Source of the DNA: an uncultured delta proteobacterium
GTDB taxonomy: Bacteria > Myxococcota_A > Polyangia > DRWM01 > JAAZOP01
Assembly: GCA_947085355.1 (NCBI GenBank)
Contig: CAMTWF010000096.1
Location: forward strand, 1-49,072
DNA length: 49,072 nt
Direction of reading: 5' to 3'
This document shows, one piece after another, positions 4,541-40,282 of the stretch. Positions within the stretch are counted from its first letter, which is position 1; every line of letters begins with the position of its first letter. Below the pieces are notes generated by a model. The model had not been told where the DNA came from. It made no database searches and saw only the letters and a program-made list of their open reading frames with translations. A program made the translations under genes and the position numbers.

Positions 4541-6133
4541 GTGAAGGAGCCGAGCAACCTGCGGGGGTACCGCCTCGAACGACCGCTGGGCACGGGCGGA
4601 ATGGGCTCGGTCTGGATCGGCGAGAAGATCGCGACCCACCAGAAGTTCGCCATCAAGTTCCTCAAGGAGGAGTACCTCGAGGACCAGACGTACGTGACCC
4701 GGTTCGAGCGGGAGGTGGCGGCGTTGCGGGCGATTCGCCATCCGCACGTCGTCAACATCTTCGACTGGTCGGTCCCGCGCGGCGATCCCGAGGCCAAGCC
4801 GTACGTGGTGATGGAACTCCTCGAGGGCGAGGGGCTCGACCGGCTGCTGCGGCGCATGCGCGTCCTGCCGCCGGCGCTCGCGGTCAACATCATGCTCCAG
4901 ATGCTCGACGGCCTCGCCGCGGCGCACGCCGTCGGCGTCATCCACCGCGACCTCGGGCCGTCCAACGTCCACCTGGTGCCGCAGCCGGGCGGCAAGCTCC
5001 TCGCGAAGGTCCTCGATTTCGGCCTCGCCAAGCCGATGGTGTCGCCGGATGAGAGCCAGGCCAACACGACCCAGAAGGGGACGTTGATGGGCAAGCCGGC
5101 CTACATCGCCCCCGAAATGTTCCTGCACAGGCCGCTCGACGCCCGCTCCGACATCTACGCCTGCGGCATGATCCTGTTCCGGATGCTCGCCGGCCGCCTC
5201 CCCTACAAGGAGAGCCAGGCGCAGATGCTCTGGATGGAGCGGTACGGGGAGCGTCAGAATCCGGTCGAGCGGCCGTCGGTTCGTTCCTTCGCGCCTTCGA
5301 TTCCCGAGAAGCTGTCCAACTGCGTCGCGCGGATGATCCGGTTGCGGCCCGAGGAGCGGTACCAGTCCGCGGAGGACGTGCAGATCGACCTCCTGGAGAT
5401 CGAGGACAGCGTCCTCGACCGGTCGAACTCCTCGGTGATGCCGCCTCCCGCGAGGCCGGAGGAAGGGACGCCGACGGTGGGGGCGGCCCCTCCGTACGAT
5501 CTCCCCGTCGATCTTGCGCCGAGCCGGCGAAGGCTCGGGTTGGCGGCTGCTGCCGGCGGCGGCCTGCTGGCGCTGGCGGCCGTGCTCTGGGCGACGGGGC
5601 TGTTCGGCGGCGGAGAAGACGCGGAGGACGGGAACCGGCCGGCCGGCCGCGCCGGCGGCGACGTGGCGGTCGACGTCGGGGCCGGCGCCCAGCGGCCGTT
5701 GGAGGGCGACGTCGCGGGCGCCGCGGAGCCGGCGGCGAAGGTCGAGCCCGGCCCCGGCGAGCCGGCGACGCATCCGTCACCGACGGCCCGGATCGAGATC
5801 GCCGCGCCGCGCACGGTGCTGGTCGTCGTCGTCGGCGCGCCGGAGGGCGCCGGAGTGTCGATAGGCGAAACCCGGCTCGGCGGCAGTCCGCCGCAGGCGC
5901 GGATCGCGTGGTCGGACCGGGTCGCCGAGGTGGTCGTGGAGGCCGACGGGTTCGAGCCGTTCCGCAAGCCGTTCCTTCCGACCGAGGACAGGGTGATCGA
6001 GGTGGAGATGCGGCCGGTTCGACGGGTCGGCAGGCCGCCGGGCCCGGGCACGCCCGGCCGTCCGCCGCGAGATCCCCGGCCCGGACCACCGACCAAGGGG
6101 TTGCCGGCCTTCGTGGAGGATCTGCCGTTTTGA
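4541..6133 (+). CDS. Membrane-anchored Hanks-type Ser/Thr protein kinase with C-terminal PEGA-like domain
   Basis: LGTGGMGSVW, AIKFL, HRDLGPSN, DFG, APE, DIYACG; hydrophobic segment LGLAAAAGGGLLALAAVLWA. Start GTG 4541 after GAGGG. Confidence 0.9.
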   Translation: MKEPSNLRGYRLERPLGTGGMGSVWIGEKIATHQKFAIKFLKEEYLEDQTYVTRFEREVAALRAIRHPHVVNIFDWSVPRGDPEAKPYVVMELLEGEGLDRLLRRMRVLPPALAVNIMLQMLDGLAAAHAVGVIHRDLGPSNVHLVPQPGGKLLAKVLDFGLAKPMVSPDESQANTTQKGTLMGKPAYIAPEMFLHRPLDARSDIYACGMILFRMLAGRLPYKESQAQMLWMERYGERQNPVERPSVRSFAPSIPEKLSNCVARMIRLRPEERYQSAEDVQIDLLEIEDSVLDRSNSSVMPPPARPEEGTPTVGAAPPYDLPVDLAPSRRRLGLAAAAGGGLLALAAVLWATGLFGGGEDAEDGNRPAGRAGGDVAVDVGAGAQRPLEGDVAGAAEPAAKVEPGPGEPATHPSPTARIEIAAPRTVLVVVVGAPEGAGVSIGETRLGGSPPQARIAWSDRVAEVVVEADGFEPFRKPFLPTEDRVIEVEMRPVRRVGRPPGPGTPGRPPRDPRPGPPTKGLPAFVEDLPF

Positions 6134-9441: not shown

Positions 9442-11337
9442 ATGAGGTCGCTTCCGCTTTGCGTCCGTGTCGTTCGCGCGGCCGTCTGCTGCGCGCCACC
9501 GCTCGCCGCGCTCGGCATCCTGTCGGGCTGCCATGCGCTGTTCGATTTCGGGCCGACGCACCGAGAGGTCGACGCTCCGGACACCGACGCCGAGGCCGAT
9601 GTTCCCCACGTGGAAGCCGACGCGGCCGAGGCCGACGACGCGGTCGACGTCCCCGACGACGGTGCGGACGAAACCGAACCGCAATGCGGCAACGACATTG
9701 TGGAGGGCTCGGAGGCGTGCGACGGCGATCCCCCCCGATTCTGCCTGACGACATGCTCCACCAACGGCGCCCAGACGTGCGTCGATTGCATCTGGCAGCC
9801 GTGCGAGGCGGTCGAGGAGTGCAACGGCGATGACGACGACTGCGACACCGTGTGCGACGACACCTTCGCCTGCTGCCGCGGCCGGGTCGAGTCGTGCACG
9901 ACCTCCTGCGGATCGATCGGATCGCGGTCCTGCAACGACAGGTGCTCCTGGGGTTTCTGTTCCCCGCCCCGCGAGGTCTGCAACGCCGTGGACGACGACT
10001 GCGACACCGTGTGCGACAACACCTACGAATGCTGCCGCGGCGCCACGGATCGTTGCGCGACCGGGTGCGGAACGAGCGGGAGCCGGACGTGCTCCGACGC
10101 CTGCACATGGGAACCCTGCCGGCCGCCTCCGGAGATCTGCGACGGCGTGGATCAGGACTGCGACACCGTGTGCGACAACGACTTCGACTGCTGCCGGTTG
10201 AGGAGCGAGCCTTGCGCGACTTCGTGCGGCTCGATCGGATCGCGCGTCTGCTCGGTTTCCTGCGCGTGGGGATCCTGCGCCCCGCCGATCGAGGCGTGCA
10301 ACGGCCGCGACGACGACTGCGACACCGTCTGCGACAACGGCTCGCCATGCTGTGCGAACGCCGCGATCTCCTGCACCACGGCCTGCGGCACGCCGGGGAC
10401 GCAAATCTGCTCGGCGGCCTGCTCCCTCCCCGCGCAGTGCTGCGCGCCCGCCGAGATCTGCGGCAACTCGTGTGACGACAACTGCGCCGGCGGGATCGAC
10501 GAGGGGTGCTGCCCGCCGTGCGCCGGCGCGACCGACGTGTCCGCCGGCGGCAGGTTCACCGGATTCCTCCTCCCAGGCGCCGGCACGACCGGCGGCGCGT
10601 GCGGAGGTGATGGTGCAGAAGCATTCTTCACCTTCACGACGACCACCGTCCGGGACATGTTCCTGACCACGCACTCGTCCTCGTTCGACACGGTCCTCTA
10701 CGTGCGCCGCTGCGCCTGCGACGGCGTCCAGGTCGCGTGCAACGACGACGCGGACGGCCTTCCGACATCCGTCCTGTCGCTCGGCGATCTGCCCGCCGGC
10801 GTCTACCACGTCTTCGTCGACGCCAAGGACGCCGCCGGCGGCGGCAGCTTCCGGCTCGACGCCTACTTCACCGAGCCGGCCGCGGCCGGCGACCGCTGCG
10901 GCAAGCCGATCCGGGTGACCACGGCCGGCGCCACCGGCAACTCGTGCGCCTTCAGCGCCGACTACACGCCGGTCGGGACTCCGGGCTGCCCGTTCGTCGG
11001 ATCCGGAGGCGCCAAGGATCTCGTCTACTACTTCGTGCTCGCGTCCCCTGCGACCGTGCGCTTCGAGACTTGCGCATCCGACGTGTACTGCCCGATCGTC
11101 GGAAGCTGCTTCGACACCACGCTCTACCTCCGCGAGGTCTGCACGTCCGACAGGCCGCAGCCGGCGTGCAACGACGATGTCTGCGGGTACGTCACGGGGG
11201 CGGGAGATCAGATCCAAAGCGACACGGGTCCCGTGACTCTCGGCGCCGGCCTCTACTACTTCTTCCTCGACGGCTACGACGACGGCAACCCCTGGTACAC
11301 CTGCGGCGACTACGTCCTGCGGGTCACGGGTCTCTGA
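9442..11337 (+). CDS. Paralogous Cys-rich lipoprotein (E.CN..DDDCD repeats + PPC-like domains)
   Basis: 3' part of ORF 7615..11337 from ATG 9442 (GAGG RBS); lipobox LSGC-HALFDF; four CN/D..DDDCDTVCD repeats; ends CGDYVLRVTGL like the upstream paralogue. Confidence 0.82.
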   Translation: MRSLPLCVRVVRAAVCCAPPLAALGILSGCHALFDFGPTHREVDAPDTDAEADVPHVEADAAEADDAVDVPDDGADETEPQCGNDIVEGSEACDGDPPRFCLTTCSTNGAQTCVDCIWQPCEAVEECNGDDDDCDTVCDDTFACCRGRVESCTTSCGSIGSRSCNDRCSWGFCSPPREVCNAVDDDCDTVCDNTYECCRGATDRCATGCGTSGSRTCSDACTWEPCRPPPEICDGVDQDCDTVCDNDFDCCRLRSEPCATSCGSIGSRVCSVSCAWGSCAPPIEACNGRDDDCDTVCDNGSPCCANAAISCTTACGTPGTQICSAACSLPAQCCAPAEICGNSCDDNCAGGIDEGCCPPCAGATDVSAGGRFTGFLLPGAGTTGGACGGDGAEAFFTFTTTTVRDMFLTTHSSSFDTVLYVRRCACDGVQVACNDDADGLPTSVLSLGDLPAGVYHVFVDAKDAAGGGSFRLDAYFTEPAAAGDRCGKPIRVTTAGATGNSCAFSADYTPVGTPGCPFVGSGGAKDLVYYFVLASPATVRFETCASDVYCPIVGSCFDTTLYLREVCTSDRPQPACNDDVCGYVTGAGDQIQSDTGPVTLGAGLYYFFLDGYDDGNPWYTCGDYVLRVTGL

Positions 11338-32165: not shown

Positions 32166-34262
32166 CTATTCCTCCTCTTCCTCGACCTTGCGGCCGCTCT
32201 CGGCGATCACCTTGTCCTGGAGCTGCGACGGCAGCTCGTCGTAGTGCGAGAACAACATCGTGAACGTCCCGCGCCCTCCGGTTATCGACCGCAGGTCGGG
32301 AGCGTACCTCAGCATCTCGGACATCGGCACGTTGGCCCTGATCACCTGGTTCTTCCCCTTCGTGTCCATGCCCAGGACGCGCCCGCGCCGCTGGTTGATG
32401 TCGCCCATCACGTCGCCCATGCACTCGTCGGGGCACATGATCTCGACCACCATGATCGGTTCGAGAATGGTCGGCCTGGCCTGCCTGGCCGCGGCCTTGA
32501 ACGCCTTGGATCCGGCCATCTGGAACGACATGTCGGACGAATCGACGTCGTGGTACTTGCCGTCGAACAGCGTGACCCTGAGATCGACGACCAGGTGTCC
32601 GGCCCGGATCCCCCGCTTCATCGCGGCGACGATCCCCTTCTCGACGGACGGTATCCATTGCCGCGGGATCGCGCCGCCGACGATGGCGTCCACGAACTCG
32701 AACCCGCCGCCGCGCGGCAACGGCTCCATGTTGACGTAGCAGACGGCGAACTGCCCGCGGCCTCCCGTCTGTTTCTTGTGCTTCCCCTCGACGTTGTCCA
32801 CCCGGCCCTTGATCGTCTCCCGGTACGGGATCTTCGGCGGCATCAGGTCGACCTCGACGCCGAACTTCCGCTTCAGCTTCTCGACCGCGACCTCGATGTG
32901 GGCCTGCCCCATCCCGGACAGGATCACCTCCTTGGCCTCCGTGTCGTGCGTGACCTGGAGCGTCGAATCCTCCTCGACGATGCGGGCCAGGGCCTGGCCG
33001 ATCTTGTCGTCGTCCGCCTTGGTGCGGGGCCTCAGGGCGAACCCGATCACCGGCACGACGGCCGGCAGCGGCGGGAAGACCACCTGGTCCTTCTCCTCGG
33101 CCAGCGAGTCGCCCGTCATCGTCGCCCTGAGCTTGGCGACGGCGACGATCTCGCCGGCCCCGGCCTCCGTCCCCGACTCCTGCTTCTTCCCCTGCGGCCT
33201 GAGGATCGCGTTGAACCGCTCGCGGGTGTCCCGGGTGACGTTGTAGAAGCCGGTCTCGGTCCGCAGCGCGCCCGACCAGACGCGCAGCAGCGTCATGCGG
33301 CCGGTGAACTGATCGACCACCGTCTTGAAGACCTGGCCGCAGAACGGAGCGGCCGCATCGGCCGCCCGGACGATCTCCTCGTCCTTGCCGGGACGCTTGA
33401 CGGCGATCGGCCTGCGATCCGCGGGCGAGGGGCAGCTCGATACGATGAGGTCCAGCAGCGGCTGGGCGCCGATGGCCGGCGTCGCGGAGCCGCAGAGGAC
33501 GGGCACCAGCGAGCCGGACAGAATCGCCTTGCGGAGTCCGGTCAGCGCCTCCTCCTCCGAGAGGGTTCCCTGGTCGAGGTATTTCTCCGTCAGGGCGTCA
33601 TCGCTGGCGGCGATGCCGTCGATCAGCTTCTCGCGCGCCTTGGCCGCCTGGTCGGCCAGATCCCCGGGGACGGCGACCTCCTGGAAGGCGGCGCTGCCGT
33701 CCCTGGCGAAACGGTAGGCCTTGCCGCCCAGCAGATCGACGACGCCCTCGAAGCGATCCTCGCGACCGATCGGGATCTGCACCGGCACGATCCTGTCGGA
33801 GAGGCTCTTGCGCAGGTCCGCGACCGCGGCGTCGAAATCGGCGCGCTCCCGATCCATCTTGTTGACGAACACGACGCGCGGCAGGGCGAGGTCCTCGGCG
33901 ATCGACCACGCCTTGTCGGCCTGCACCTGGACGCCGTCCACCGCCGACACGACGAGGATCGCGGCGTCCATGACGGTCATGCAGTTGTGCGTGTCGAGGA
34001 AGAAGTTGGCGTCCCCCGGCGTATCGAGGATCGTCACGCGCCGCTTGCGCCATTCGCAGCTCGCGATCCCCGTCGAGATGCTCGATCCCCGCTTGATCTC
34101 CTCCGGCTCGTGGTCGAACGTCGTCGTGCCGTCGGCCACCGTACCCAGCCGCCCGATCGCCTTGGCGGCGAAAAGCAGCATTTCCCCGACCGACGTCTTG
34201 CCGGCGCCCTGGTGGCCGACCAGCCCGACGTTGCGGATCGATGCGGTGTCGTACTTCCTCAT
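32166..34262 (-). CDS. fusA: Elongation factor G paralogue (EF-G2-like)
   Basis: GHQGAGKTS, DTPG, NKMD, GMGQAH, PYRETI, KKQTGGRGQF, YHDVDSS, LEPIM; divergent switch motifs RGSSI and DTPGD. Confidence 0.92.
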   Translation of the reverse strand: MRKYDTASIRNVGLVGHQGAGKTSVGEMLLFAAKAIGRLGTVADGTTTFDHEPEEIKRGSSISTGIASCEWRKRRVTILDTPGDANFFLDTHNCMTVMDAAILVVSAVDGVQVQADKAWSIAEDLALPRVVFVNKMDRERADFDAAVADLRKSLSDRIVPVQIPIGREDRFEGVVDLLGGKAYRFARDGSAAFQEVAVPGDLADQAAKAREKLIDGIAASDDALTEKYLDQGTLSEEEALTGLRKAILSGSLVPVLCGSATPAIGAQPLLDLIVSSCPSPADRRPIAVKRPGKDEEIVRAADAAAPFCGQVFKTVVDQFTGRMTLLRVWSGALRTETGFYNVTRDTRERFNAILRPQGKKQESGTEAGAGEIVAVAKLRATMTGDSLAEEKDQVVFPPLPAVVPVIGFALRPRTKADDDKIGQALARIVEEDSTLQVTHDTEAKEVILSGMGQAHIEVAVEKLKRKFGVEVDLMPPKIPYRETIKGRVDNVEGKHKKQTGGRGQFAVCYVNMEPLPRGGGFEFVDAIVGGAIPRQWIPSVEKGIVAAMKRGIRAGHLVVDLRVTLFDGKYHDVDSSDMSFQMAGSKAFKAAARQARPTILEPIMVVEIMCPDECMGDVMGDINQRRGRVLGMDTKGKNQVIRANVPMSEMLRYAPDLRSITGGRGTFTMLFSHYDELPSQLQDKVIAESGRKVEEEEE

Positions 34263-34315
34263 GACGGGTCCTTTCCCACGGCGCCCCGGCGCCGTCCCGG
34301 CGCCCCGAGCGTCGG

Positions 34316-34344
34316 ACGCTAGCGCGGGTCGCGCCGCCGGTCAA
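34316..34344 (-). promoter_or_regulatory. Putative sigma70 promoter for fusA-rpsT
   Basis: Minus strand TTGACC-N17-TAGCGT; identical hexamers recur at 40294-40322. Confidence 0.55.
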
Positions 34345-34361
34345 AGGGTTTCGGGCAGGGC

Positions 34362-34401
34362 GGGCGGGTGCATCCCCCCAACTGGGGGGATGCACCCGCC
34401 C
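34362..34401. repeat. Perfect 19-bp inverted repeat with a 2-nt spacer
   Basis: GGGCGGGTGCATCCCCCCA-AC-TGGGGGGATGCACCCGCCC, between divergent fusA and DUF1566 genes. Confidence 0.9.
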
Positions 34402-34506
34402 TTGACCATCGTTTCGGCGCTTCCTGGCGCGACCACGGATCGCGTGCTACGCAGCCGTTCGGGAGCCGGCGGGTCGGTTGCCGGGCCCCCGAAGGAGGTA
34501 GGACGA

Positions 34507-35058
34507 ATGCATGCAACGAAACAACGTTGGGGTCTCGGCTTGGCCGCGGCGTTCGCCGCCGTGGCGACGACATGGTGGGGGTGCGACGCCGCAGCGGACG
34601 ACGCCGGGGACGTCTGGTCCGACCCGTCCAGCGGGTTGATGTGGCAGGAGCCGCCCGCTGCCGAGGAGATGGCTTGGGACCGCGCGGTCCAATACTGCGA
34701 CAACCTGGTTCTCGGCGGGTTCGATGACTGGCGTCTGCCGACGATCGGCGAGCTGCGGTCGTTCATTCGCGGCTGTCCCGATACGATGACCGGCGGCTTG
34801 TGCGGCGTCACCGACCGCTGTCTGAACGGCGGATGCCGGACTTTCGGCTGCGACGGGTGCGGCCTCGGTGGGGGTCCGGGTTCACGCGGGTGCTACTGGG
34901 ATCCCCTCGTGACGGGCGTTTGCCACTTCTACTGGTCGTCGTCGTCGGTTTCCGGTTCGTCCTCCTATGCCTGGTTTGTGGCCTTCAACCTCGGCAACGT
35001 GCACGCCGGCGACAAGGTGTACGGCACCTATGTCCGCTGCATTCGTCGCGGACCGTGA
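34507..35058 (+). CDS. DUF1566/Lcl-domain (C-type lectin fold) lipoprotein; candidate DGR target 1
   Basis: GGAGG RBS; signal ending WWGC; DPSSGLMWQ, DDWRLPTIGELRS, YWSSS, AWFVAFNLG, YVRCIR. Confidence 0.88.
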   Translation: MHATKQRWGLGLAAAFAAVATTWWGCDAAADDAGDVWSDPSSGLMWQEPPAAEEMAWDRAVQYCDNLVLGGFDDWRLPTIGELRSFIRGCPDTMTGGLCGVTDRCLNGGCRTFGCDGCGLGGGPGSRGCYWDPLVTGVCHFYWSSSSVSGSSSYAWFVAFNLGNVHAGDKVYGTYVRCIRRGP

Positions 35059-35182
35059 TTTTCGGTCTTTGGTGCTTTGGCTCTTTGGTCCTTGTCACCT
35101 GCGCTGGGCGGCGATCGCCTTCGGGCCCGGTCCCGCCGATTCACGGTCGAGGCGCGGGGCGTCCGGCGGCACGCTTCTCCGG
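34615..35182 (+). repeat. 568-bp direct repeat, copy 1 (DUF1566 domain + 124 bp of 3' non-coding sequence)
   Basis: Colinear without indels with 38140-38707 (constant offset 3525). Confidence 0.92.
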
Positions 35183-35266
35183 CTCCGCGGCCGGTGCGTG
35201 CGGCGATGGGGGTGGTTGATGCGGTCGGGTTTCGTTCGGGAAGATTGGACGACCTCGTGCTAGACT

Positions 35267-35614
35267 GTGGCCGTGATGGAGACCCCGGCGCCGATCCCGA
35301 TCGATGACCCGGTCCTGGCCGAGATCGTTCGCCGGCTCGTGGGCCCCCTCCGCCCCGAGCGCGTCTACCTTTTCGGATCCAGGGCAAGGGACGACGTGAC
35401 GGAGGAGAGCGACTACGACATCCTCGTCGTCCTGCCGGGCTCCGGGGAAACGCCACGCCAGTTGACGGCCGACGCCCGCAACCTGCTGTGGGGCCTGGGT
35501 GTGCCGGTAGACGTCCTGCTGTGGACGCAGGGGGAATTCGACCGGCGCCTCTCGGTCATTGCCTCGCTCCCGGCGACGGTCGTTCGCGAGGGCAAGCTGC
35601 TCTATGCCGCCTGA
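35267..35614 (+). CDS. Minimal nucleotidyltransferase (MNT) antitoxin-type protein
   Basis: VYLFGSRARDD..SDYDILVV, VDVL, REGKLLYAA. Confidence 0.9.
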   Translation: MAVMETPAPIPIDDPVLAEIVRRLVGPLRPERVYLFGSRARDDVTEESDYDILVVLPGSGETPRQLTADARNLLWGLGVPVDVLLWTQGEFDRRLSVIASLPATVVREGKLLYAA

Positions 35615-36007
35615 ACTTCGGGACGAGGTCATCGAGTGGCTTTCCAAGGCACTTTCGACGCCGCCCAAGTGCTGACCGCGTCCACGCCGCGGCACACGGG
35701 GATCGCGTGCTTCCTGTGCCGGCAAGCGGCGGAGAAGGCGCTCAAGGCATTCCTGGTCTGGCGTCAGACGTCGTTCCGCCGGTCCCACGACCTGGACTAC
35801 CTGCTCAACCTCTGCGCCGCGGGCGCGCCGGAGTTCGAGGAGCTGCGAGCGGCGGCGCGTACGCTGACCACGTACGCCGCGGACTTCCGCTACCCGGGCC
35901 GCCGGGCGGACCCGCCGATCGATGAAACGCACGCGGCCATCCATTTGGCCGAGGCAGTCGTGACGTTCGTCGTCGAACGCTTGCCCGAGGAAGTCCGTCC
36001 CAGGTAG
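35604..36007 (+). pseudogene. HEPN-domain protein, frameshifted near its 5' end
   Basis: ATG 35604 overlapping the MNT stop gives MPPELRDEVIEWLSKA then hits TGA. The rest (DAAQVL..QAAEKALKA..SHDL..RYP) is in another frame; total length 404 nt is not a multiple of 3. Confidence 0.75.
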
Positions 36008-36096
36008 GCGGTGGCTTCGCGGGCCCGCAGGCAACCCGCGCGCCGGCGTCGTCCAGGATTCGTGGGGGGCCGAGCGGATGAGGGAGTTGGACCGAC

Positions 36097-37257
36097 ATGA
36101 TTGCCAGGATGCGTCTGACGGTGGTTCTCGTGCTGGTGGCGACGACCGCGAATGCGGCGGCGCAAGACCAGGGCGCGACGGCGGCCTCGCCGCAGCCCGA
36201 CGAGGAGGCGCGACGCGGGCAGGCGAGGCTGCACTTCGAGCGCGGCAACGGGCTGATGGACGTCGAGGACTGGGACGGCGCGATCCTGGAGTTCGAGCGG
36301 TCGCTGGAGCTGCACCCCACGCGCGCGGCGCTGTTCAACCTCGCCAACTGCCTCGAGGCCGTCCGCGCGTACCGCCACGCGATCGGCGCCTACGTGCGGT
36401 TCCTGCATGAGTATCGTGACGCGGCGAGACCGGAGGAACTCCAGCGCGTGGCGGAGCGATTGCAGCGGCTCAGGTCGCTCGTCGCCGAGATCGCCGTCAA
36501 CGTGAACGTCCCGGGGGCCGAGATCCTCGTGGACGGCGAGAGCGTCGGCACGGCGCCCCTGGTCGAGCCCGTGCAGGTGGGCCCCGGCCGGCACGCGTTC
36601 GAGGCGCGGGCCGAGGGCTACGCGACGGCGCAGCGCGTGGTCCCCGTCGCGTCGGGCGATCGCGTCACGATCGATCTGACCCTGACGGAGATCGCGCGGG
36701 TCGGCGGCCTGCGCGTCGAGGCGAACGTTCCGGGCGCCGAGGTATGGGTGGACGGCGCCTTGATGGGCGCGGCGCCCTACCGCGGCGAGATGGCCGAGGG
36801 GGAGCACGAGATCCGCGTTGCCGCGCCGGGGTATGCGGACCACGTGCAGACGATCTCCGTGGCGACGGGGGACGAGCGGATCGTCACGGTGACGCTGGCG
36901 GAGCCCGGGGGGACGCATCCGGCGTGGTTCTGGTCGATGGTGGGGCTCACGGGCGCCGCGGCCGTGGCGACCGCGGCGCTCGGCGCCGTCGTGCTGGTGA
37001 AGGACGACGACTACGCCAACGACCAGGGCCGCACGGTCGAGATGCAGGACGAGGGCAAGCGCCTCGTCATCGCGACCGACGTGTCCCTCGGCATCGCCGT
37101 CGCGTCCGCCATCGCGGCGACGGTGCTCGCCTTCACCACCGCCTGGGGCGGCGACGAGGAGGCAAGGCCGGCCGCTTCCACGCCCCGGGTTGACGTGGCC
37201 GGGTCCATCGGCGCCGCGGACGGCGGCGCCGCGGTGTTCCTGATCGGCCGGTTCTAG
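36097..37257 (+). CDS. TPR + PEGA domain protein
   Basis: Signal peptide, ARLHFERG..ALFNLANC TPR, two PEGA repeats (NVPGAEILVDG, NVPGAEVWVDG), WFW hydrophobic C-terminal hairpin; paralogue of 6133-7335. Confidence 0.87.
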   Translation: MIARMRLTVVLVLVATTANAAAQDQGATAASPQPDEEARRGQARLHFERGNGLMDVEDWDGAILEFERSLELHPTRAALFNLANCLEAVRAYRHAIGAYVRFLHEYRDAARPEELQRVAERLQRLRSLVAEIAVNVNVPGAEILVDGESVGTAPLVEPVQVGPGRHAFEARAEGYATAQRVVPVASGDRVTIDLTLTEIARVGGLRVEANVPGAEVWVDGALMGAAPYRGEMAEGEHEIRVAAPGYADHVQTISVATGDERIVTVTLAEPGGTHPAWFWSMVGLTGAAAVATAALGAVVLVKDDDYANDQGRTVEMQDEGKRLVIATDVSLGIAVASAIAATVLAFTTAWGGDEEARPAASTPRVDVAGSIGAADGGAAVFLIGRF

Positions 37258-37258
37258 C

Positions 37259-37290
37259 GATTTCGGATTTCGGATTTCGGATTTCGGATT
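37259..37290. repeat. Heptamer tandem repeat (GATTTCG)x4.5
   Basis: Directly visible between the PEGA stop and the RBS of the next gene. Confidence 0.92.
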
Positions 37291-37299
37291 GAGGGTGAG

Positions 37300-38583
37300 A
37301 TGATGGTGTTGGATCGCGGAGGTTGCGGAGCGTGCGGCCGGTGGCGACGGCGCCGGGCGTGGTCGGCGGTCGCGGCGGCCGTTGCGTTGGGCGGCTGCAG
37401 CCTGATGGGGCTGTTCGACGAAGAGCCGCCGGAGCCGCCGGAGGCGCCGTGCGAGCCGGGGGAGCGGCGCCCGGGTGTGTGCGGCGTCTGCGATGCGACC
37501 GCCGGCACGGAGGTCTGCGGCGCCGGCGGCGTCTGGGAACGGTACTGGTGCCCGCCGGATCCCGATGACGGGGACGGCGACGGCGCCGCCTCCACCGAGT
37601 GCCGTCCCGGCGTGCCGGTGGACTGCAACGACGGAAACCGCGAGATCCACCCCGGGGCGACCGAGACCTGCAACAACACCGATGACGACTGCAACGGCGA
37701 GACGGACGAGGACTTCGACTGCGCTCCAGGGCGTACGCAGCCCTGCATGGCGTGCGGCGTAGCCGCCGGCGAGCAGACGTGCGGGGCCGGGTGCACCTGG
37801 GAGCCGTGCGTGCCGGCGGCGGGGCAGGGGGTCTGCCTGATCGACGGGACCTGCAATGAGGATGGCGACCTCGATCCGGGAAACGCGTGCCGGTGGTGCG
37901 CGCCGGAGACGAGCGCGACCGCGTGGAGCGACGCACCGATCGGGACGGGATGCCCCGCGGACGCGCTGGCCTGCACACTGGATGGCGTCTGCGACGGGGC
38001 GGGGACCTGCACGCACCCACTTGCGCCGGGATTCTGCCTGATCGACGGGACCTGCCGGGCGGAGGGCGAGCGGGATCCGACCGACACGTGCCGGATCTGC
38101 GACTCGGCAAGCGTTCCGACCTCGTGGTCGCGCTTCTGCTGGATCGACCCGGGCAGCGGGTTGATGTGGCAGGATCCGCCCGCTGCCGATCTGATGGCTT
38201 GGGACCCCGCGGTCTCCTACTGCGCCGGCTTGGAGTATCTCGGGTTCGATGACTGGCGCCTGCCGACGATCGGCGAGCTGCGGTCGCTCATTCGCGGCTG
38301 TCCCGGCACGATGACCGGCGGCTCGTGCGGCGTCACCGACGCCTGTCTGGGCGCCGGATGCTGGACTTCCGGCTGCGACGGCTGCGGCGACGGTGCGGGT
38401 CCGGGTTCAGGCGGGTGCTACTGGGATCCCCTCGTGACGGGCTATTGCACCGTCTACTGGTCGTCGTCGTCCTACTCGGGCTCCTCCTCCCGCGCGTGGT
38501 ACGTCGCCTTCAACTACGGCCTCGTGCGCAACGCCGACAAGACGGACAGCTTCTATGTCCGCTGCATTCGTCGCGGACCGTGA
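37300..38583 (+). CDS. Cys-rich lipoprotein with C-terminal DUF1566/Lcl domain; candidate DGR target 2
   Basis: Lipobox LGGC; DCNDGNREIHPGATETCNNTDDDCNG metal-binding-type repeat; CLIDGTC repeats; DPGSGLMWQ..DDWRLPT..YWSSS..YVRCIR. Confidence 0.88.
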   Translation: MMVLDRGGCGACGRWRRRRAWSAVAAAVALGGCSLMGLFDEEPPEPPEAPCEPGERRPGVCGVCDATAGTEVCGAGGVWERYWCPPDPDDGDGDGAASTECRPGVPVDCNDGNREIHPGATETCNNTDDDCNGETDEDFDCAPGRTQPCMACGVAAGEQTCGAGCTWEPCVPAAGQGVCLIDGTCNEDGDLDPGNACRWCAPETSATAWSDAPIGTGCPADALACTLDGVCDGAGTCTHPLAPGFCLIDGTCRAEGERDPTDTCRICDSASVPTSWSRFCWIDPGSGLMWQDPPAADLMAWDPAVSYCAGLEYLGFDDWRLPTIGELRSLIRGCPGTMTGGSCGVTDACLGAGCWTSGCDGCGDGAGPGSGGCYWDPLVTGYCTVYWSSSSYSGSSSRAWYVAFNYGLVRNADKTDSFYVRCIRRGP

Positions 38584-38707
38584 TTTTCGGTCTTTGATCC
38601 TTTGGCTCTTTGGTCCTTGTCGCCTGCGCTGGGCGGCGAACGCCTTCGGGCCCGGTCCCGCCGATCCACGGTCGAGGCGCGGGGCGTCCGGCGGCGCGCT
38701 TCTCCGG
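38140..38707 (+). repeat. 568-bp direct repeat, copy 2
   Basis: Colinear with 34615-35182. Confidence 0.92.
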
Positions 38708-38861
38708 ATCGTAGCCGTTCATGCCCCGTTTCGTGGTCGTGGTCGACTACGCGGCCGAGCCGGAACCGGGCCGGCACGAACGCGAGCACCACCTGCGCGA
38801 ACCGGACGACGCGCGCAGCCTTTGTGGACCGCATCCAGCGGCCACGGAAGGCTCGACCCGC

Positions 38862-39404
38862 GCGATAGCCAGGCCCGCCGGCGCGATCGGAAGGCGCCGA
38901 AGCGCCTTGCCTACGCCCCGTCGGGCGTTCCGAAGGCGGTGGTGGAGCGATAGCCAAGCCATGCCGGCGCGATCGGAAGGCGCCGAAGCGCCTTGCCTAC
39001 GCCCCGTCGGGCGTTCCCAAGGCGGTGGTGGGGCGATAGCCAGGCCCTGCCGGCGCGATCGGAAGGCGCCGAATCGCCTTGCCTACGCCCCGTCGGGCGT
39101 TCCCAAGGCGGGCGGCGGGCGATATGAACGCCCGCACCGGGCCGATCGTGCGCGGAGGAATGCCTTCAACAGGCTCGCGGCCGCGTTCGCCTCGCCCCGT
39201 CGAGCGTTTCCAAGGCGGTGGTGGGGCGATAGCCTGCGACCTGCCGGCGCGATCGGAAGGCGCCGAATCGCCTTGTCTACGCTCCGTCGAGCGTTCCGAA
39301 GGCGGTGGTGGGCGATATGAACGCCCGCACCGGGCCCATCGTGCGCGGGGGAATGCCTTCAACAGGCTCGCGGCCGCGTTCGCCTCGCCCCGTCCGGGCG
39401 TTCG
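38862..39404. repeat. Composite tandem array A-A-A-B-A-B (units 85, 86, 86, 107, 86, ~93 bp)
   Basis: Units start GCGATA at 38862, 38947, 39033, 39119, 39226, 39312 and share the core CGCCCCGTCG(G/A)GCGTTCC(C/G)AAGGCGGTGGTGG (truncated in the last unit). Confidence 0.9.
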
Positions 39405-39428
39405 GGGGACCCGCGACCGGCCGAGGGG

Positions 39429-39869
39429 CTACCCTTCCTTGGGCTGGCGTGGGCCCTTGGCGAAGAAGTCCAGGACGGGCTTGAACATGGAGGCGATCTC
39501 GGGATCGTGCTTCATCTGGACCTTCACCTGATCGTTTACCTTGCGGATCTGCTCCCATGCCCCAGCGTCGAAGAGCAGGTTGCCCTGCTTGAGGATGCCC
39601 AGGACCACCTCGAGGTCCACGATGACCGTGTCGATCTCCTCGGCCCGCCGGCCGGCATCGCGGAGCGACTGAGGCGTCACGTCTCGGGGCGGCGTGAACT
39701 TGGCGCCGCCCTTCTCGATCACGTCCGCCGCCTGGTAGCACACCAAGCCGATGCCGCGCGGTGTCTTCGGGATCCGCGCCACCTCGGCGGGCGAGAGCTT
39801 CCCCGCCTGCTCCGGGGGCTTCAAGAAGTCGTCGAACAACACGCGGACGGTTCCGTGCTCGATCTCCAT
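39429..39869 (-). CDS. Hypothetical 146-aa predominantly helical protein
   Basis: Strong GGAGG RBS before ATG 39869; host-like codon usage; no recognisable catalytic motif. Confidence 0.8.
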   Translation of the reverse strand: MEIEHGTVRVLFDDFLKPPEQAGKLSPAEVARIPKTPRGIGLVCYQAADVIEKGGAKFTPPRDVTPQSLRDAGRRAEEIDTVIVDLEVVLGILKQGNLLFDAGAWEQIRKVNDQVKVQMKHDPEIASMFKPVLDFFAKGPRQPKEG

Positions 39870-39988
39870 CGTCGTGTCCTCCACTGCGCCATCCAGGCGC
39901 GATTGGAAGGTCCAGCCAACCCAGACCCTCACGAGTATCCAGCGCCGGAGTATCCGCAGACCGCGGTGGGAAATCAAGACCGACGCAA

Positions 39989-40282
39989 AACCGGGGTGCA
40001 TCGATGTCGGGAGGTGGGGGAGGCGAGCCGCCACAATTCGTGTGTGCCCCACATGACCCGCTGTTTGCGCGGCCGCCCTTCTCCGGGCGTAGGGGAGGGC
40101 GAGCGGGCGGCGTAGCCGTCCGCGAGTCCTCCCGCGAGCGCGTGGTGAACGTGCGGGAGGACTCGGCGGCGCTTCGCGCCGCCTCGCCCTCCCCTACAGG
40201 ACGAAAAAGGCGCGGCTGCGCGGAAATCCGTGTGCGGCTCGCCTCCACCACCTCCCGACATCGACTTGGATGCACCCCGGTT
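39989..40282. repeat. 294-bp nested imperfect palindrome (REPIN/MITE-like or structured RNA)
   Basis: Paired arms AACCGGGGTGCATC/GATGCACCCCGGTT, TCGATGTCGGGAGGTGG/CCACCTCCCGACATCGA, GGAGGCGAGCCGC/GCGGCTCGCCTCC, GTAGGGGAGGGCGAG/CTCGCCCTCCCCTAC, CGAGTCCTCCCGC/GCGGGAGGACTCG. Confidence 0.88.

What the first reader, a model, noticed from the sequence alone, without database searches (positions are those of the whole stretch)
34507..38707. Two DUF1566/Lcl lectin-fold genes with a DGR variable-region signature and no RT or template nearby: candidate remote DGR targets
Seen: 34615-35182 and 38140-38707 align without indels. In the 13 codons at 34990-35028 vs 38515-38553, nine differ (ctc/tac, aac/ctc, cac/cgc, gcc/aac, ggc/gcc, gtg/acg, tac/gac, ggc/agc, acc/ttc). 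All nine are non-synonymous and keep the third base. They are followed by 43 identical nt spanning the stop codon. Established: DGRs mutate template adenines (typically AAC codons), giving NNC variation at the C-terminus of C-type-lectin-fold proteins, and DUF1566 is a known target class. Inference: both genes are diversified in trans by a DGR elsewhere in the genome, giving variable surface lipoproteins in a myxobacterium-like cell.
Basis: partly seen in the sequence, partly recalled or inferred. Interest (0 to 1): 0.9.

Follow-up and report, generated by a model that had tools for sequence, protein, structure and literature searches.

The report
Two lectin genes with DGR-written ends
Two neighbouring surface-lectin genes of an uncultured myxobacterium end in short stretches that carry the marks of a known targeted-mutation system (a diversity-generating retroelement), but the enzyme and template that write such stretches are not in the assembled genome.

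Summary
34615-35184 and 38140-38709 align without indels. Nine of the 13 codons at 34990-35028 differ, all non-synonymously and all keeping the third base, and 43 identical bases follow.

It is more than chance. Relatives carry this lectin domain as a diversity-generating retroelement (DGR) target. G008 (same order) has target-VR-Avd-TR-RT on one contig. G001 (same family) has a decayed core between two targets. A/B differences fall on its AAC/AAT codons in 9 of 11 such codons against 2 of 20 others (p=1.3e-4).

The "remote target" reading is only partly supported. The 4.15-Mb, 90.6%-complete MAG holds no RT, no template repeat and no DGR-type Avd. None of five same-family MAGs has an intact DGR RT. 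Intact cores in three relatives do match variable regions on other contigs.

I am about 85% sure the ends were written by a DGR. Whether the core is unassembled (~0.40) or lost (~0.45) is open. This is a new member of a known kind, of moderate interest.

The parts
34507..35058 (+). Gene A, 183 aa: short signal/lipoprotein-like N-terminus followed by one Lcl_C (DUF1566) lectin-fold domain
   Evidence: The ORF runs from the ATG at 34507 inside the open frame 33721-35058. Pfam Lcl_C E=6.4e-21, residues 38-180. AlphaFold2 model of residues 36-183: pLDDT 97.1. Best PDB match is the Legionella Lcl C-terminal domain 8q4e_A, followed by C-type lectin-like domains.
34940..35057 (+). Variable region of gene A (VR-A), with limits set by homology to the 118-nt VR/TR repeat of relative G008
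   Evidence: Alignment with the VR/TR pairs of G008 and G001. A/B differences fall on the AAC/AAT codons of G001's template repeat.
35059..35184 (+). Conserved 3' flank of VR-A, with three CTTTGG-type repeats at 35067-35087 followed by a GC-rich foldable stretch
   Evidence: 119 of 126 bases are identical to the flank of gene B, and homology ends at about 35184. In this genome the triple repeat occurs only after the two VRs. The same repeats follow the VRs of G001, G004, G008 and G023 but not their template repeats. MFE fold -63.3 kcal/mol, not tested against shuffles.
37300..38583 (+). Gene B, up to 427 aa (start uncertain): lipoprotein-like N-terminus, Cys-rich region with a MopE-type motif, then the same Lcl_C domain
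   Evidence: ORF. Pfam Lcl_C E=7.1e-21 (residues 282-424) and Cu-binding_MopE E=5.3e-10.
38465..38582 (+). Variable region of gene B (VR-B)
   Evidence: Same register as VR-A at offset 3525.
38584..38709 (+). Conserved 3' flank of VR-B, with CTTTGG-type repeats at 38592-38612
34945..34980 (+). 5' part of the VR where the two copies differ at 9 of 12 third codon positions (its counterpart is 38470-38505)
   Evidence: pS 0.93 here, against 0.075 upstream and 0 downstream. Unexplained.

Best explanation
Genes A and B are paralogous, probably surface-exposed lectin-fold (Lcl_C/DUF1566) proteins. Their lectin domain plus 125-nt 3' flank was duplicated recently. The last ~39 codons of each are a variable region (VR) of a diversity-generating retroelement of the lineage seen intact in relative G008 and decayed in relative G001. 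The proposed mechanism follows established DGR biology and is inferred here, not shown. A template repeat (TR) RNA rich in AAC codons is copied by an error-prone reverse transcriptase that misreads adenines. The cDNA then replaces the VR. The scaffold bases stay constant, and the first two bases of the AAC-derived codons are rewritten. That gives two lectins with different binding surfaces. The writing core (Avd, TR, RT) is not in the assembled genome. Whether it sits in unassembled DNA and still acts in trans, or has been lost leaving frozen variants, is undecided; I put the two at about 0.40 and 0.45.
For: 1. Signature. In 34981-35055 there are 14 differences, all at codon positions 1 or 2 and none at position 3. 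pN is 0.25 and pS is 0.
2. Homology to proven VR/TR pairs. G008 contig C169 has a target gene with the same Cys-rich Lcl_C domain, then a VR, an Avd gene, a TR 98/118 identical to the VR, and an RT, all on one strand. G001's TR aligns without gaps to VR-A and VR-B.
3. Coincidence of sites. A/B differences fall on 9 of 11 AAC/AAT codons of G001's TR, against 2 of 20 other codons (p=1.3e-4). By base, 16 of 30 TR adenines differ, against 5 of 63 other bases (p=3e-6).
4. VR and TR ends. In G001 and G008 every VR ends GGACCGTGA and every TR ends GGAACGTGG. A and B have the VR form.
5. Flank repeats. The CTTTGG-type repeats after the stop codon follow the VRs of this lineage, including G008's remote VR on L158, but not its TRs. 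In this genome they occur only after A and B.
6. Action in trans occurs in this clade. The TRs of all three intact cores found match a VR on another contig. Mismatches at TR adenines: L138/L094 22 of 26; L105/L096 19 of 26; G008/L158 10 of 18.
7. Fold. The model has the Lcl/C-type-lectin fold. DUF1566 is a recognised DGR target class, about 14% of DGRs, exemplified by the Legionella lipoprotein LdtA (PMC5758913, passages read).
Against: No defining DGR component was found in the window's own genome.
- RT: PF00078 gave 0 matches (1 candidate scored). An intact relative's DGR RT as query gave 0 candidates. tblastn with G008's RT halves gave nothing better than E=0.27, and with its Avd nothing better than E=0.19.
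- TR: blastn of the VR region at E<=10 found only the two copies plus 19-nt GC-rich scraps. A scan of the 75 constant VR positions gave 75/75 at the two VRs and at most 45/75 elsewhere. No AAC-rich VR-like stretch exists.
- Without a TR, adenine specificity cannot be tested in this genome. Against the cross-genus TR of G001 only 17 of 27 (A) and 16 of 25 (B) mismatches are at adenines.
- The 5' third of the VR is not homogenised between the copies: 9 of 12 third positions differ. In G008's cis/L158 pair the last 38 codons have pS 0.
- Codon-clustered non-synonymous change also occurs upstream of any known TR reach: pN 0.156 against pS 0.075, with 13 codons changed at both positions 1 and 2. 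So a non-DGR process can produce part of this look.
- Contigs from two runs of one study carry VR-A letter for letter. This is weak, and one run may be the source sample.
Confidence: 0.85

Rival explanations
1. Sub-reading 1 of the best explanation: the DGR core is present in the organism but missing from the MAG, and both genes are live remote targets diversified in trans.
For: The MAG is fragmented: 380 contigs and 90.6% complete by markers. It is only 4.15 Mb, against 5.3-7.3 Mb for the five same-family MAGs. In relatives the DGR RTs often lie at contig ends or on short contigs: G050 C137:5-1435 and C144:2-250, G023 C225, and G008 on an 8.2-kb contig. The upstream domain (pS 0.075) and the flank (7/126) indicate a recent duplication, so the VR rewriting is recent too. 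Remote VRs matched by a TR occur in all three genomes with an intact core. The VR-type end and the CTTTGG flank are intact in both copies.
Against: No RT fragment, TR or DGR-type Avd appears on any of the 380 contigs, contig ends included. None of the five same-family MAGs (78-99% complete) has an intact DGR RT. Both VRs assembled cleanly inside a 49-kb contig. Contigs of runs X1 and X3 carry the same VR-A letters (weak, because contigs drop rare variants). The 5' third of the VR is not homogenised between the copies.
Confidence: 0.4
2. Sub-reading 2 of the best explanation: the core was lost or inactivated after it wrote both VRs. A and B are orphan, frozen DGR products that now evolve like ordinary genes.
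For: There is no core component in the MAG. Same-family G001 shows the process in place. Between its two targets lie only an Avd start, an intact TR and an RT reduced to roughly residues 10-158 plus a short C-terminal piece, without the YVDD region. Its VRs carry 5 non-adenine mismatches each, of 21 and of 15. G003 and G004 hold VR-like ends but no DGR-type RT. G004 also has a stranded VR 3' fragment. Only 3 of 80 family loci have RT and Avd within 6 kb. Of the 8 relatives whose match covers the lectin-gene/VR part of the query, I count 3 (G006, G008, G023) with a DGR-type RT hit. G001 has only a fragment.
Against: Absence from an incomplete MAG does not show loss. The VR differences postdate a recent duplication (pS 0.075 upstream), so the loss would have to be very recent. 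No remnant of Avd, TR or RT lies near A or B, unlike in G001.
Confidence: 0.45
3. No DGR was ever involved. The two paralogues diverged by ordinary mutation under strong diversifying selection on ligand-contact residues, with recombination among lectin paralogues. The resemblance to a VR reflects shared ancestry of the domain only.
For: The whole domain, not only the VR, shows excess non-synonymous change: upstream dN/dS 2.2, with 13 codons changed at both positions 1 and 2. A/B-different columns are the family's generally variable columns: mean top-residue frequency 0.29, against 0.67 for identical columns. Adenine is not enriched among the upstream differing letters (0.19 against a background of 0.15). 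No TR or RT is present.
Against: The differing codons match the AAC/AAT codons of a relative's TR (p=1.3e-4). There are 0 third-position changes beside 14 first- and second-position changes in 25 codons. The VR-type end and the lineage-specific flank are shared with proven VRs. Adenine is 0.32 of the differing letters in the last 38 codons, against a background of 0.18. The upstream dN/dS excess is not significant on its own (Fisher p=0.09).
Confidence: 0.08

Closest known systems
Legionella pneumophila DGR and its target LdtA (DUF1566 / 'category d', CLec2 variable regions)
   Same: The target is a DUF1566/Lcl_C-type domain with the variable stretch at the extreme C-terminus. LdtA is a surface lipoprotein whose diversified C-terminus is exposed (PMC5758913, passages read). 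A and B hit Lcl_C. Their model's best PDB match is the Legionella Lcl C-terminal domain 8q4e_A, with E=7.4e-4 and TM 0.53/0.59.
   Different: In this genome no RT, TR or Avd accompanies the genes. The domain carries a Cys-rich insert conserved in the Myxococcota subfamily. Identity to 8q4e_A is 19%.
Treponema denticola DGR with multiple remote targets, and the non-adjacent targets surveyed by Wu et al. 2018
   Same: One core serves several target genes far from the RT. Wu et al. assign 73 non-adjacent targets to 45 of 372 DGRs, and 29 targets lying more than 100 kb away to 10 DGRs, with seven for Treponema (PMC5758913, passages read). The relatives here show the same layout across contigs.
   Different: Those targets were assigned because a TR in the same genome matched them with A-to-N differences. 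Here there is no TR to match. As far as I recall, the Treponema targets are of the FGE-sulfatase/CLec type rather than DUF1566; I did not check this.
The intact DGR of relative G008 (L069/L084) and the decayed one of G001 (L070), both uncultured Myxococcota by the record titles
   Same: Same lectin subfamily (53% identity to G008's target). Same VR register, same VR end, and the same CTTTGG-type repeats after the stop codon.
   Different: G008 has Avd, TR and RT directly after the VR. G001 keeps a TR and RT fragments. The window has an MNT/HEPN pair and a PEGA/TPR gene between A and B, and no core remnant.

Membership tests
Diversity-generating retroelement (whole system) | A DGR-clade reverse transcriptase encoded in the genome | tested here: not met
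   PF00078: 0 matches in G000. Intact DGR RT of L138 as query: 0 candidates. tblastn with G008's RT halves: best E=0.27. The MAG is 90.6% complete, so absence from the organism is not shown.
Diversity-generating retroelement (whole system) | A template repeat that matches the variable region except at its adenines | tested here: not met
   No third copy by blastn at E<=10. Masked scan of 75 constant positions: best non-self score 45/75. No AAC-rich VR-like stretch. Against a relative's TR, 17 of 27 and 16 of 25 mismatches are at adenines.
Diversity-generating retroelement (whole system) | An accessory gene (Avd-type) beside the TR and RT | tested here: not met
   Seven PF05635 matches in the genome, 5 above the cut-off. 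G008's Avd finds nothing better than E=0.19. None of the 5 is followed by an RT or an A-rich stretch; the highest A fraction per 100 nt is 0.25.
DGR target gene / variable region | Variable stretch at the C-terminal end of a C-type-lectin-fold domain, varying at codon positions 1 and 2 of AAC-derived codons | tested here: met
   Lcl_C hits. Model pLDDT 97.1, with Lcl and C-type lectin matches. 14 differences at positions 1 and 2 and 0 at position 3 in 34981-35055. Differences coincide with the AAC/AAT codons of G001's TR, p=1.3e-4.
DGR target gene / variable region | Conserved 3' end of the VR (IMH-like) and a downstream recognition structure. The hairpin/cruciform requirement is recalled from the Bordetella phage literature and was not read here. 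| tested here: inconclusive
   The VR-type end GGACCGTGA is shared with the VRs of G001 and G008, while their TRs end GGAACGTGG. The CTTTGG repeats are specific to the VR flank. The flank folds at -63.3 kcal/mol, but I ran no shuffle control and found no covariation. No function has been tested.
DGR target gene / variable region | Within-population variation confined to the VR | not testable with these tools
   Only Logan contigs of 4 runs of one study were available, and contigs drop rare variants. Protein A's 90% cluster has one member, and the nearest protein is 64% identical.
Lcl_C / DUF1566 (PF07603) | Match to the Pfam model above its gathering score | tested here: met
   75.3 and 75.1 bits against a cut-off of 34.9. 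The six-frame search of the genome gives the same two places plus a third gene on C23.

The most novel reading that the evidence does not exclude
A and B are live remote targets of a G008-type DGR whose core lies in unassembled DNA. The 125-nt flank with its three CTTTGG repeats follows the VRs of this lineage wherever they sit, never follows a TR, and is missing from the most degenerate remote VR I looked at (L157). On this reading it is the cis signal that lets the retroelement find targets in trans. The block 34945-34980, with saturated synonymous differences, would then record a retrohoming tract that overwrote one copy further 5' than the other.
Probability: 0.25. Interest if true: 0.65.

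Novelty: new member of a known kind. Interest (0 to 1): 0.45.

Why it matters
DGR surveys start from the reverse transcriptase and look beside it. [quoted passage not shown] This locus shows that variable regions can be recognised from the target side, without RT or TR in view. The means are a paralogue comparison plus homology to a relative's template. In this Myxococcota lineage, VR-bearing lectin genes often stand without a neighbouring core: only 3 of 80 loci have RT and Avd within 6 kb. One relative shows a core decaying in place. If the genes are orphans, they show how a hypermutation system can leave a fixed repertoire of receptor variants. If they are live, the conserved flank is a concrete candidate for the signal that directs homing to distant targets. 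In either case the biology is that of a known system, and the function of the lectins is unknown.

Tried and rejected
Exact 24-nt search of metagenome contigs with the constant VR end: 0 hits. A protein-based scan of the same collection gave 4 distant loci (45-59% identity or less), none with RT or Avd.

Sequencing runs: 7 runs were listed, 4 of them from one study holding 36-88% of the sampled words, all kept as Logan contigs. I laid X1-X4 on 33900-38900 at >=90% likeness.
- The contigs are short and break at the stretches shared by A and B.
- Of the 41 listed other-letter places (53 more were not shown), none lies in 34990-35028 or 38515-38553. Only 38483 C>T lies in VR-B.
- Contigs drop rare variants, so this does not test DGR activity.
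- My 90% threshold would also have excluded a TR-bearing contig.
- One X3 contig joins 35027 to 38553 across the 44 shared bases. I read that as a repeat path, not a deletion, because X3 covers the DNA in between.
- An X4 contig (38208-38421, 14 differences) differs at codons that also differ between A and B (38306, 38354, 38382, 38390). I could not tell whether it is another allele, a paralogue or another organism.

I made no further attempt.

Upstream differences as DGR products of a longer TR: rejected as unsupported. The TRs of relatives span 118-136 nt. Adenine is not enriched among the upstream differing letters.

Third-position differences in 34945-34980 as adenine mutagenesis: rejected. 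None of the 18 letters is A.

PF05635 (Avd-like) genes of the MAG as hidden DGR cores: rejected.

G023: its two VR-like genes on C29 have no matching TR on the RT-bearing contig stretches I fetched. Left open.

Long-read genomes G061-G065: only G064 has a full DGR-type RT. The lectin copies of G061 and G062 are more distant (39-51% identity) and lack this VR end, and my tail-extraction script misread tandem domains. I draw nothing from them.

Rfam scan of 34000-40000: no match at E<=1. Promoter/terminator consensus scan of 34200-39000: none. The distal flank gave only short GC-rich scraps elsewhere in the genome.

Literature: searches, and passages read in PMC5758913 and PMC8144416. The words Myxococc and Deltaproteobacteria do not occur in the main text of either paper. 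No paper with 'orphan VR' or 'orphan target' was listed.


Full report
WHAT IS THERE. The window is contig C96 of a metagenome-assembled genome (MAG) of 4.15 Mb in 380 contigs, 90.6% complete by marker genes. Gene A (34507-35058, 183 aa) and gene B (37300-38583, up to 427 aa) lie on the plus strand, 3.5 kb apart. Both match Pfam Lcl_C/DUF1566 above its cut-off, and B also carries a MopE-type Cys-rich motif. Between them lie a nucleotidyltransferase/HEPN pair and a PEGA/TPR gene. Both N-termini read like lipoprotein signals. That is my reading by eye of the translations and was not tested.

THE OBSERVATION. From 34615 to about 35184 the two loci align at a fixed offset of 3525 without any indel.
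All nine change the residue and all keep base 3.
- The 43 bases 35029-35071 are identical.
- Homology continues for 126 bases past the stop, with 7 differences, and then ends abruptly.
- By the Nei-Gojobori method the block falls into three parts:
  - Upstream domain (110 codons): pS 0.075, pN 0.156.
  - 34945-34980 (12 codons): pS 0.93.
  - 34981-35055 (25 codons): pS 0, pN 0.25.

WHY THESE ARE DGR VARIABLE REGIONS. A diversity-generating retroelement (DGR) copies a template repeat (TR) with an error-prone reverse transcriptase (RT) and writes the copy into a variable region (VR) of a target gene; Avd is its usual accessory protein. A DNA search of 60 relatives found the VR region in 12 of them (13 of 61 genomes counting the window's own).

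In G008 (same order) the match lies about 1.6 kb from a reverse transcriptase. That contig carries, on one strand, the following parts:
- a 646-aa target ending in the same Cys-rich Lcl_C domain;
- a 118-nt VR;
- an Avd gene;
- a TR 98/118 identical to the VR;
- the RT.

In G001 (same family) two targets flank an Avd start, a TR and RT fragments.
- A and B differ at 9 of the 11 codons that are AAC or AAT in that TR, and at 2 of the 20 others (p=1.3e-4).
- By base, 16 of 30 TR adenines differ, against 5 of 63 other bases (p=3e-6).
- The VRs of G001 and G008 end GGACCGTGA, as A and B do. Their TRs end GGAACGTGG.
- A high-confidence model (pLDDT 97.1) has the Lcl/C-type-lectin fold.

DUF1566-type domains are a recognised DGR target class (PMC5758913, passages read).

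A LINEAGE-SPECIFIC FLANK. Directly after the stop codon both copies carry three CTTTGG-type repeats (35067-35087 and 38592-38612).
- In this genome that triple repeat occurs nowhere else.
- The same repeats follow the VRs of G001 (both), G004, G008 (the cis VR and the remote VR on L158) and G023 (both), but not the TRs.
- Among 81 C-terminal lectin domains in the 80 family loci, only 3 have them.
- G008's most degenerate remote VR (L157, 9 of 23 mismatches at adenines) is not among the three.

This marks A and B as members of the G008/G001 DGR lineage. It suggests, but does not show, a cis role in target recognition.

IS THERE A CORE IN THIS GENOME? I found none. Each search below came back empty:
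- PF00078.
- An intact relative's DGR RT as query.
- tblastn with G008's RT and Avd.
- blastn of the VR region at E<=10.
- An in-phase AAC/AAT scan.
- A masked scan of the 75 constant VR positions; the best non-self score was 45/75.

The five strong PF05635 genes are stand-alone, with nothing DGR-like behind them.

Among the five same-family MAGs (78-99% complete), only G001 gives a DGR-type RT hit, and it is a fragment lacking the catalytic YVDD region. G001's VRs have begun to drift from its TR: 5 non-adenine mismatches each, of 21 and of 15.

DO SUCH DGRS ACT IN TRANS? Yes, in relatives. Of 80 family loci fetched from public genomes (279 relatives found, nearly all titled Myxococcota, Myxococcales or Deltaproteobacteria MAGs), only 3 have RT and Avd within 6 kb. 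The TR of each of those three also matches a VR on another contig of the same genome. Mismatches at TR adenines are as follows:

| Core | Cis VR | Remote VR(s) |
|---|---|---|
| L138 | 21 of 21 | L094: 22 of 26 |
| L105 | 24 of 25 | L096: 19 of 26 |
| G008 | 14 of 20 | L158: 10 of 18; L157: 9 of 23 |

In those genomes the paired targets are old paralogues upstream (pS 0.43-0.72). Their last 38 codons are kept alike (pS 0-0.23).

HOW A AND B DIFFER FROM THAT PATTERN. Their upstream domain is young (pS 0.075), so the domain plus flank was copied recently and the VR differences are recent as well.

The upstream domain nevertheless has pN 0.156, and 13 codons are changed at both positions 1 and 2.
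- These changes sit on the family's generally variable columns.
- They show no adenine enrichment.
- The overall dN/dS of 2.2 is not significant on its own (p=0.09).

I read this as fast, probably selected, change of surface residues, not as DGR action.

The block 34945-34980, where 9 of 12 third positions differ and none of the letters is A, is unexplained. One candidate reading is a retrohoming tract that reached further 5' in one copy than in the other. It is known from the Bordetella phage system that the 5' end of the transferred tract varies; I recall this and did not read it here.

ACTIVE OR ORPHAN? I cannot decide.
- For an unassembled, live core:
  - The MAG is small and fragmented.
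  - DGR cores in relatives sit at contig ends.
  - The rewriting is recent.
- For loss:
  - No fragment of a core lies on any contig.
  - No intact DGR RT is found in the family, and one core is decaying in place.
  - Both VRs assembled cleanly, and contigs of two runs of one study give identical VR-A letters. This is weak, because contigs drop rare variants and one run may be the source sample.

Population data do not exist elsewhere. Protein A's 90% cluster has one member, and the nearest protein is 64% identical. Metagenome scans gave only distant relatives.

I put the readings at 0.40 (live), 0.45 (orphan) and 0.08 (never a DGR product).

VERDICT. The mechanism that wrote it is a known one, and the target class and the use of remote targets are known too. 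The claim that a DGR elsewhere in this genome diversifies the genes now is not shown. New here are the clade context, the standing of VR-bearing genes without a core, the flank repeats and the mosaic of synonymous divergence. Interest is moderate.

Noticed in passing
window 38877-39328: Five head-to-tail copies of an 86-nt GC-rich unit (62-95% identical to the first copy) lie directly downstream of gene B's flank, with a second 91-nt repeat pair interleaved at 39111-39201 and 39304-39394. There is no Rfam match.
   Followed up: no
window 37259-37291: A run of GATTTCG heptamers sits between the PEGA/TPR gene and gene B. Metagenome contigs pile up here (summed depth 1777-6077 against roughly 10-50 elsewhere) with many loose ends, so it is a simple repeat shared with many other sequences.
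   Followed up: partly
window 35267-35614 and 35636-36007: A nucleotidyltransferase (NTP_transf_2) gene and a HEPN gene lie in tandem, the layout of MNT/HEPN toxin-antitoxin pairs. They sit between gene A's flank and the PEGA/TPR gene.
   Followed up: no
G000 contigs C152, C149, C348, C344, C193, C172, C14, C138 and others (positions): A dispersed repeat of AACGGC hexamers followed by GGGGAT units and a conserved ~35-nt tail appears among the 25 windows printed of the 26 that the AAC scan picked up. Several copies lie close to contig ends. It is not related to the VRs.
   Followed up: no
L069 (G008:C169) 5181-5298 against 5870-5987: G008's TR uses GAC more than AAC codons. Six of its 20 mismatches to the cis VR are at the G of GAC, with the VR showing T or C there. 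This departs from strict adenine specificity. It may mean that the TR has drifted or that the VR was written by an earlier TR.
   Followed up: partly
L070 (G001:C329) 2337-2993: A DGR core is decaying in place between two targets. The Avd is reduced to its first ten residues and fused to the TR. The TR is intact. The RT is reduced to an N-terminal part plus a short C-terminal piece, without the catalytic motif.
   Followed up: yes
L072 (G004:C153) about 10777-10844: A stranded VR 3' end (about 68 nt, encoding the last ~20 residues and the stop) is preceded by a perfect GC-rich hairpin. It lies 2 kb from a full VR-bearing lectin gene, in a genome with no DGR-type RT hit.
   Followed up: no
window 38208-38421, as laid: A contig of run X4 differs from gene B at 14 places in 214 nt. 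The four listed places fall in codons that also differ between A and B, and two of the four show a third letter. It could be another allele or a paralogue; the contig sequence could not be read.
   Followed up: no
G000:C23:6409-6933 (minus strand): A third Lcl_C gene in the genome (47.3 bits; 38% identical to A). It lacks the VR-type end and the CTTTGG flank.
   Followed up: partly
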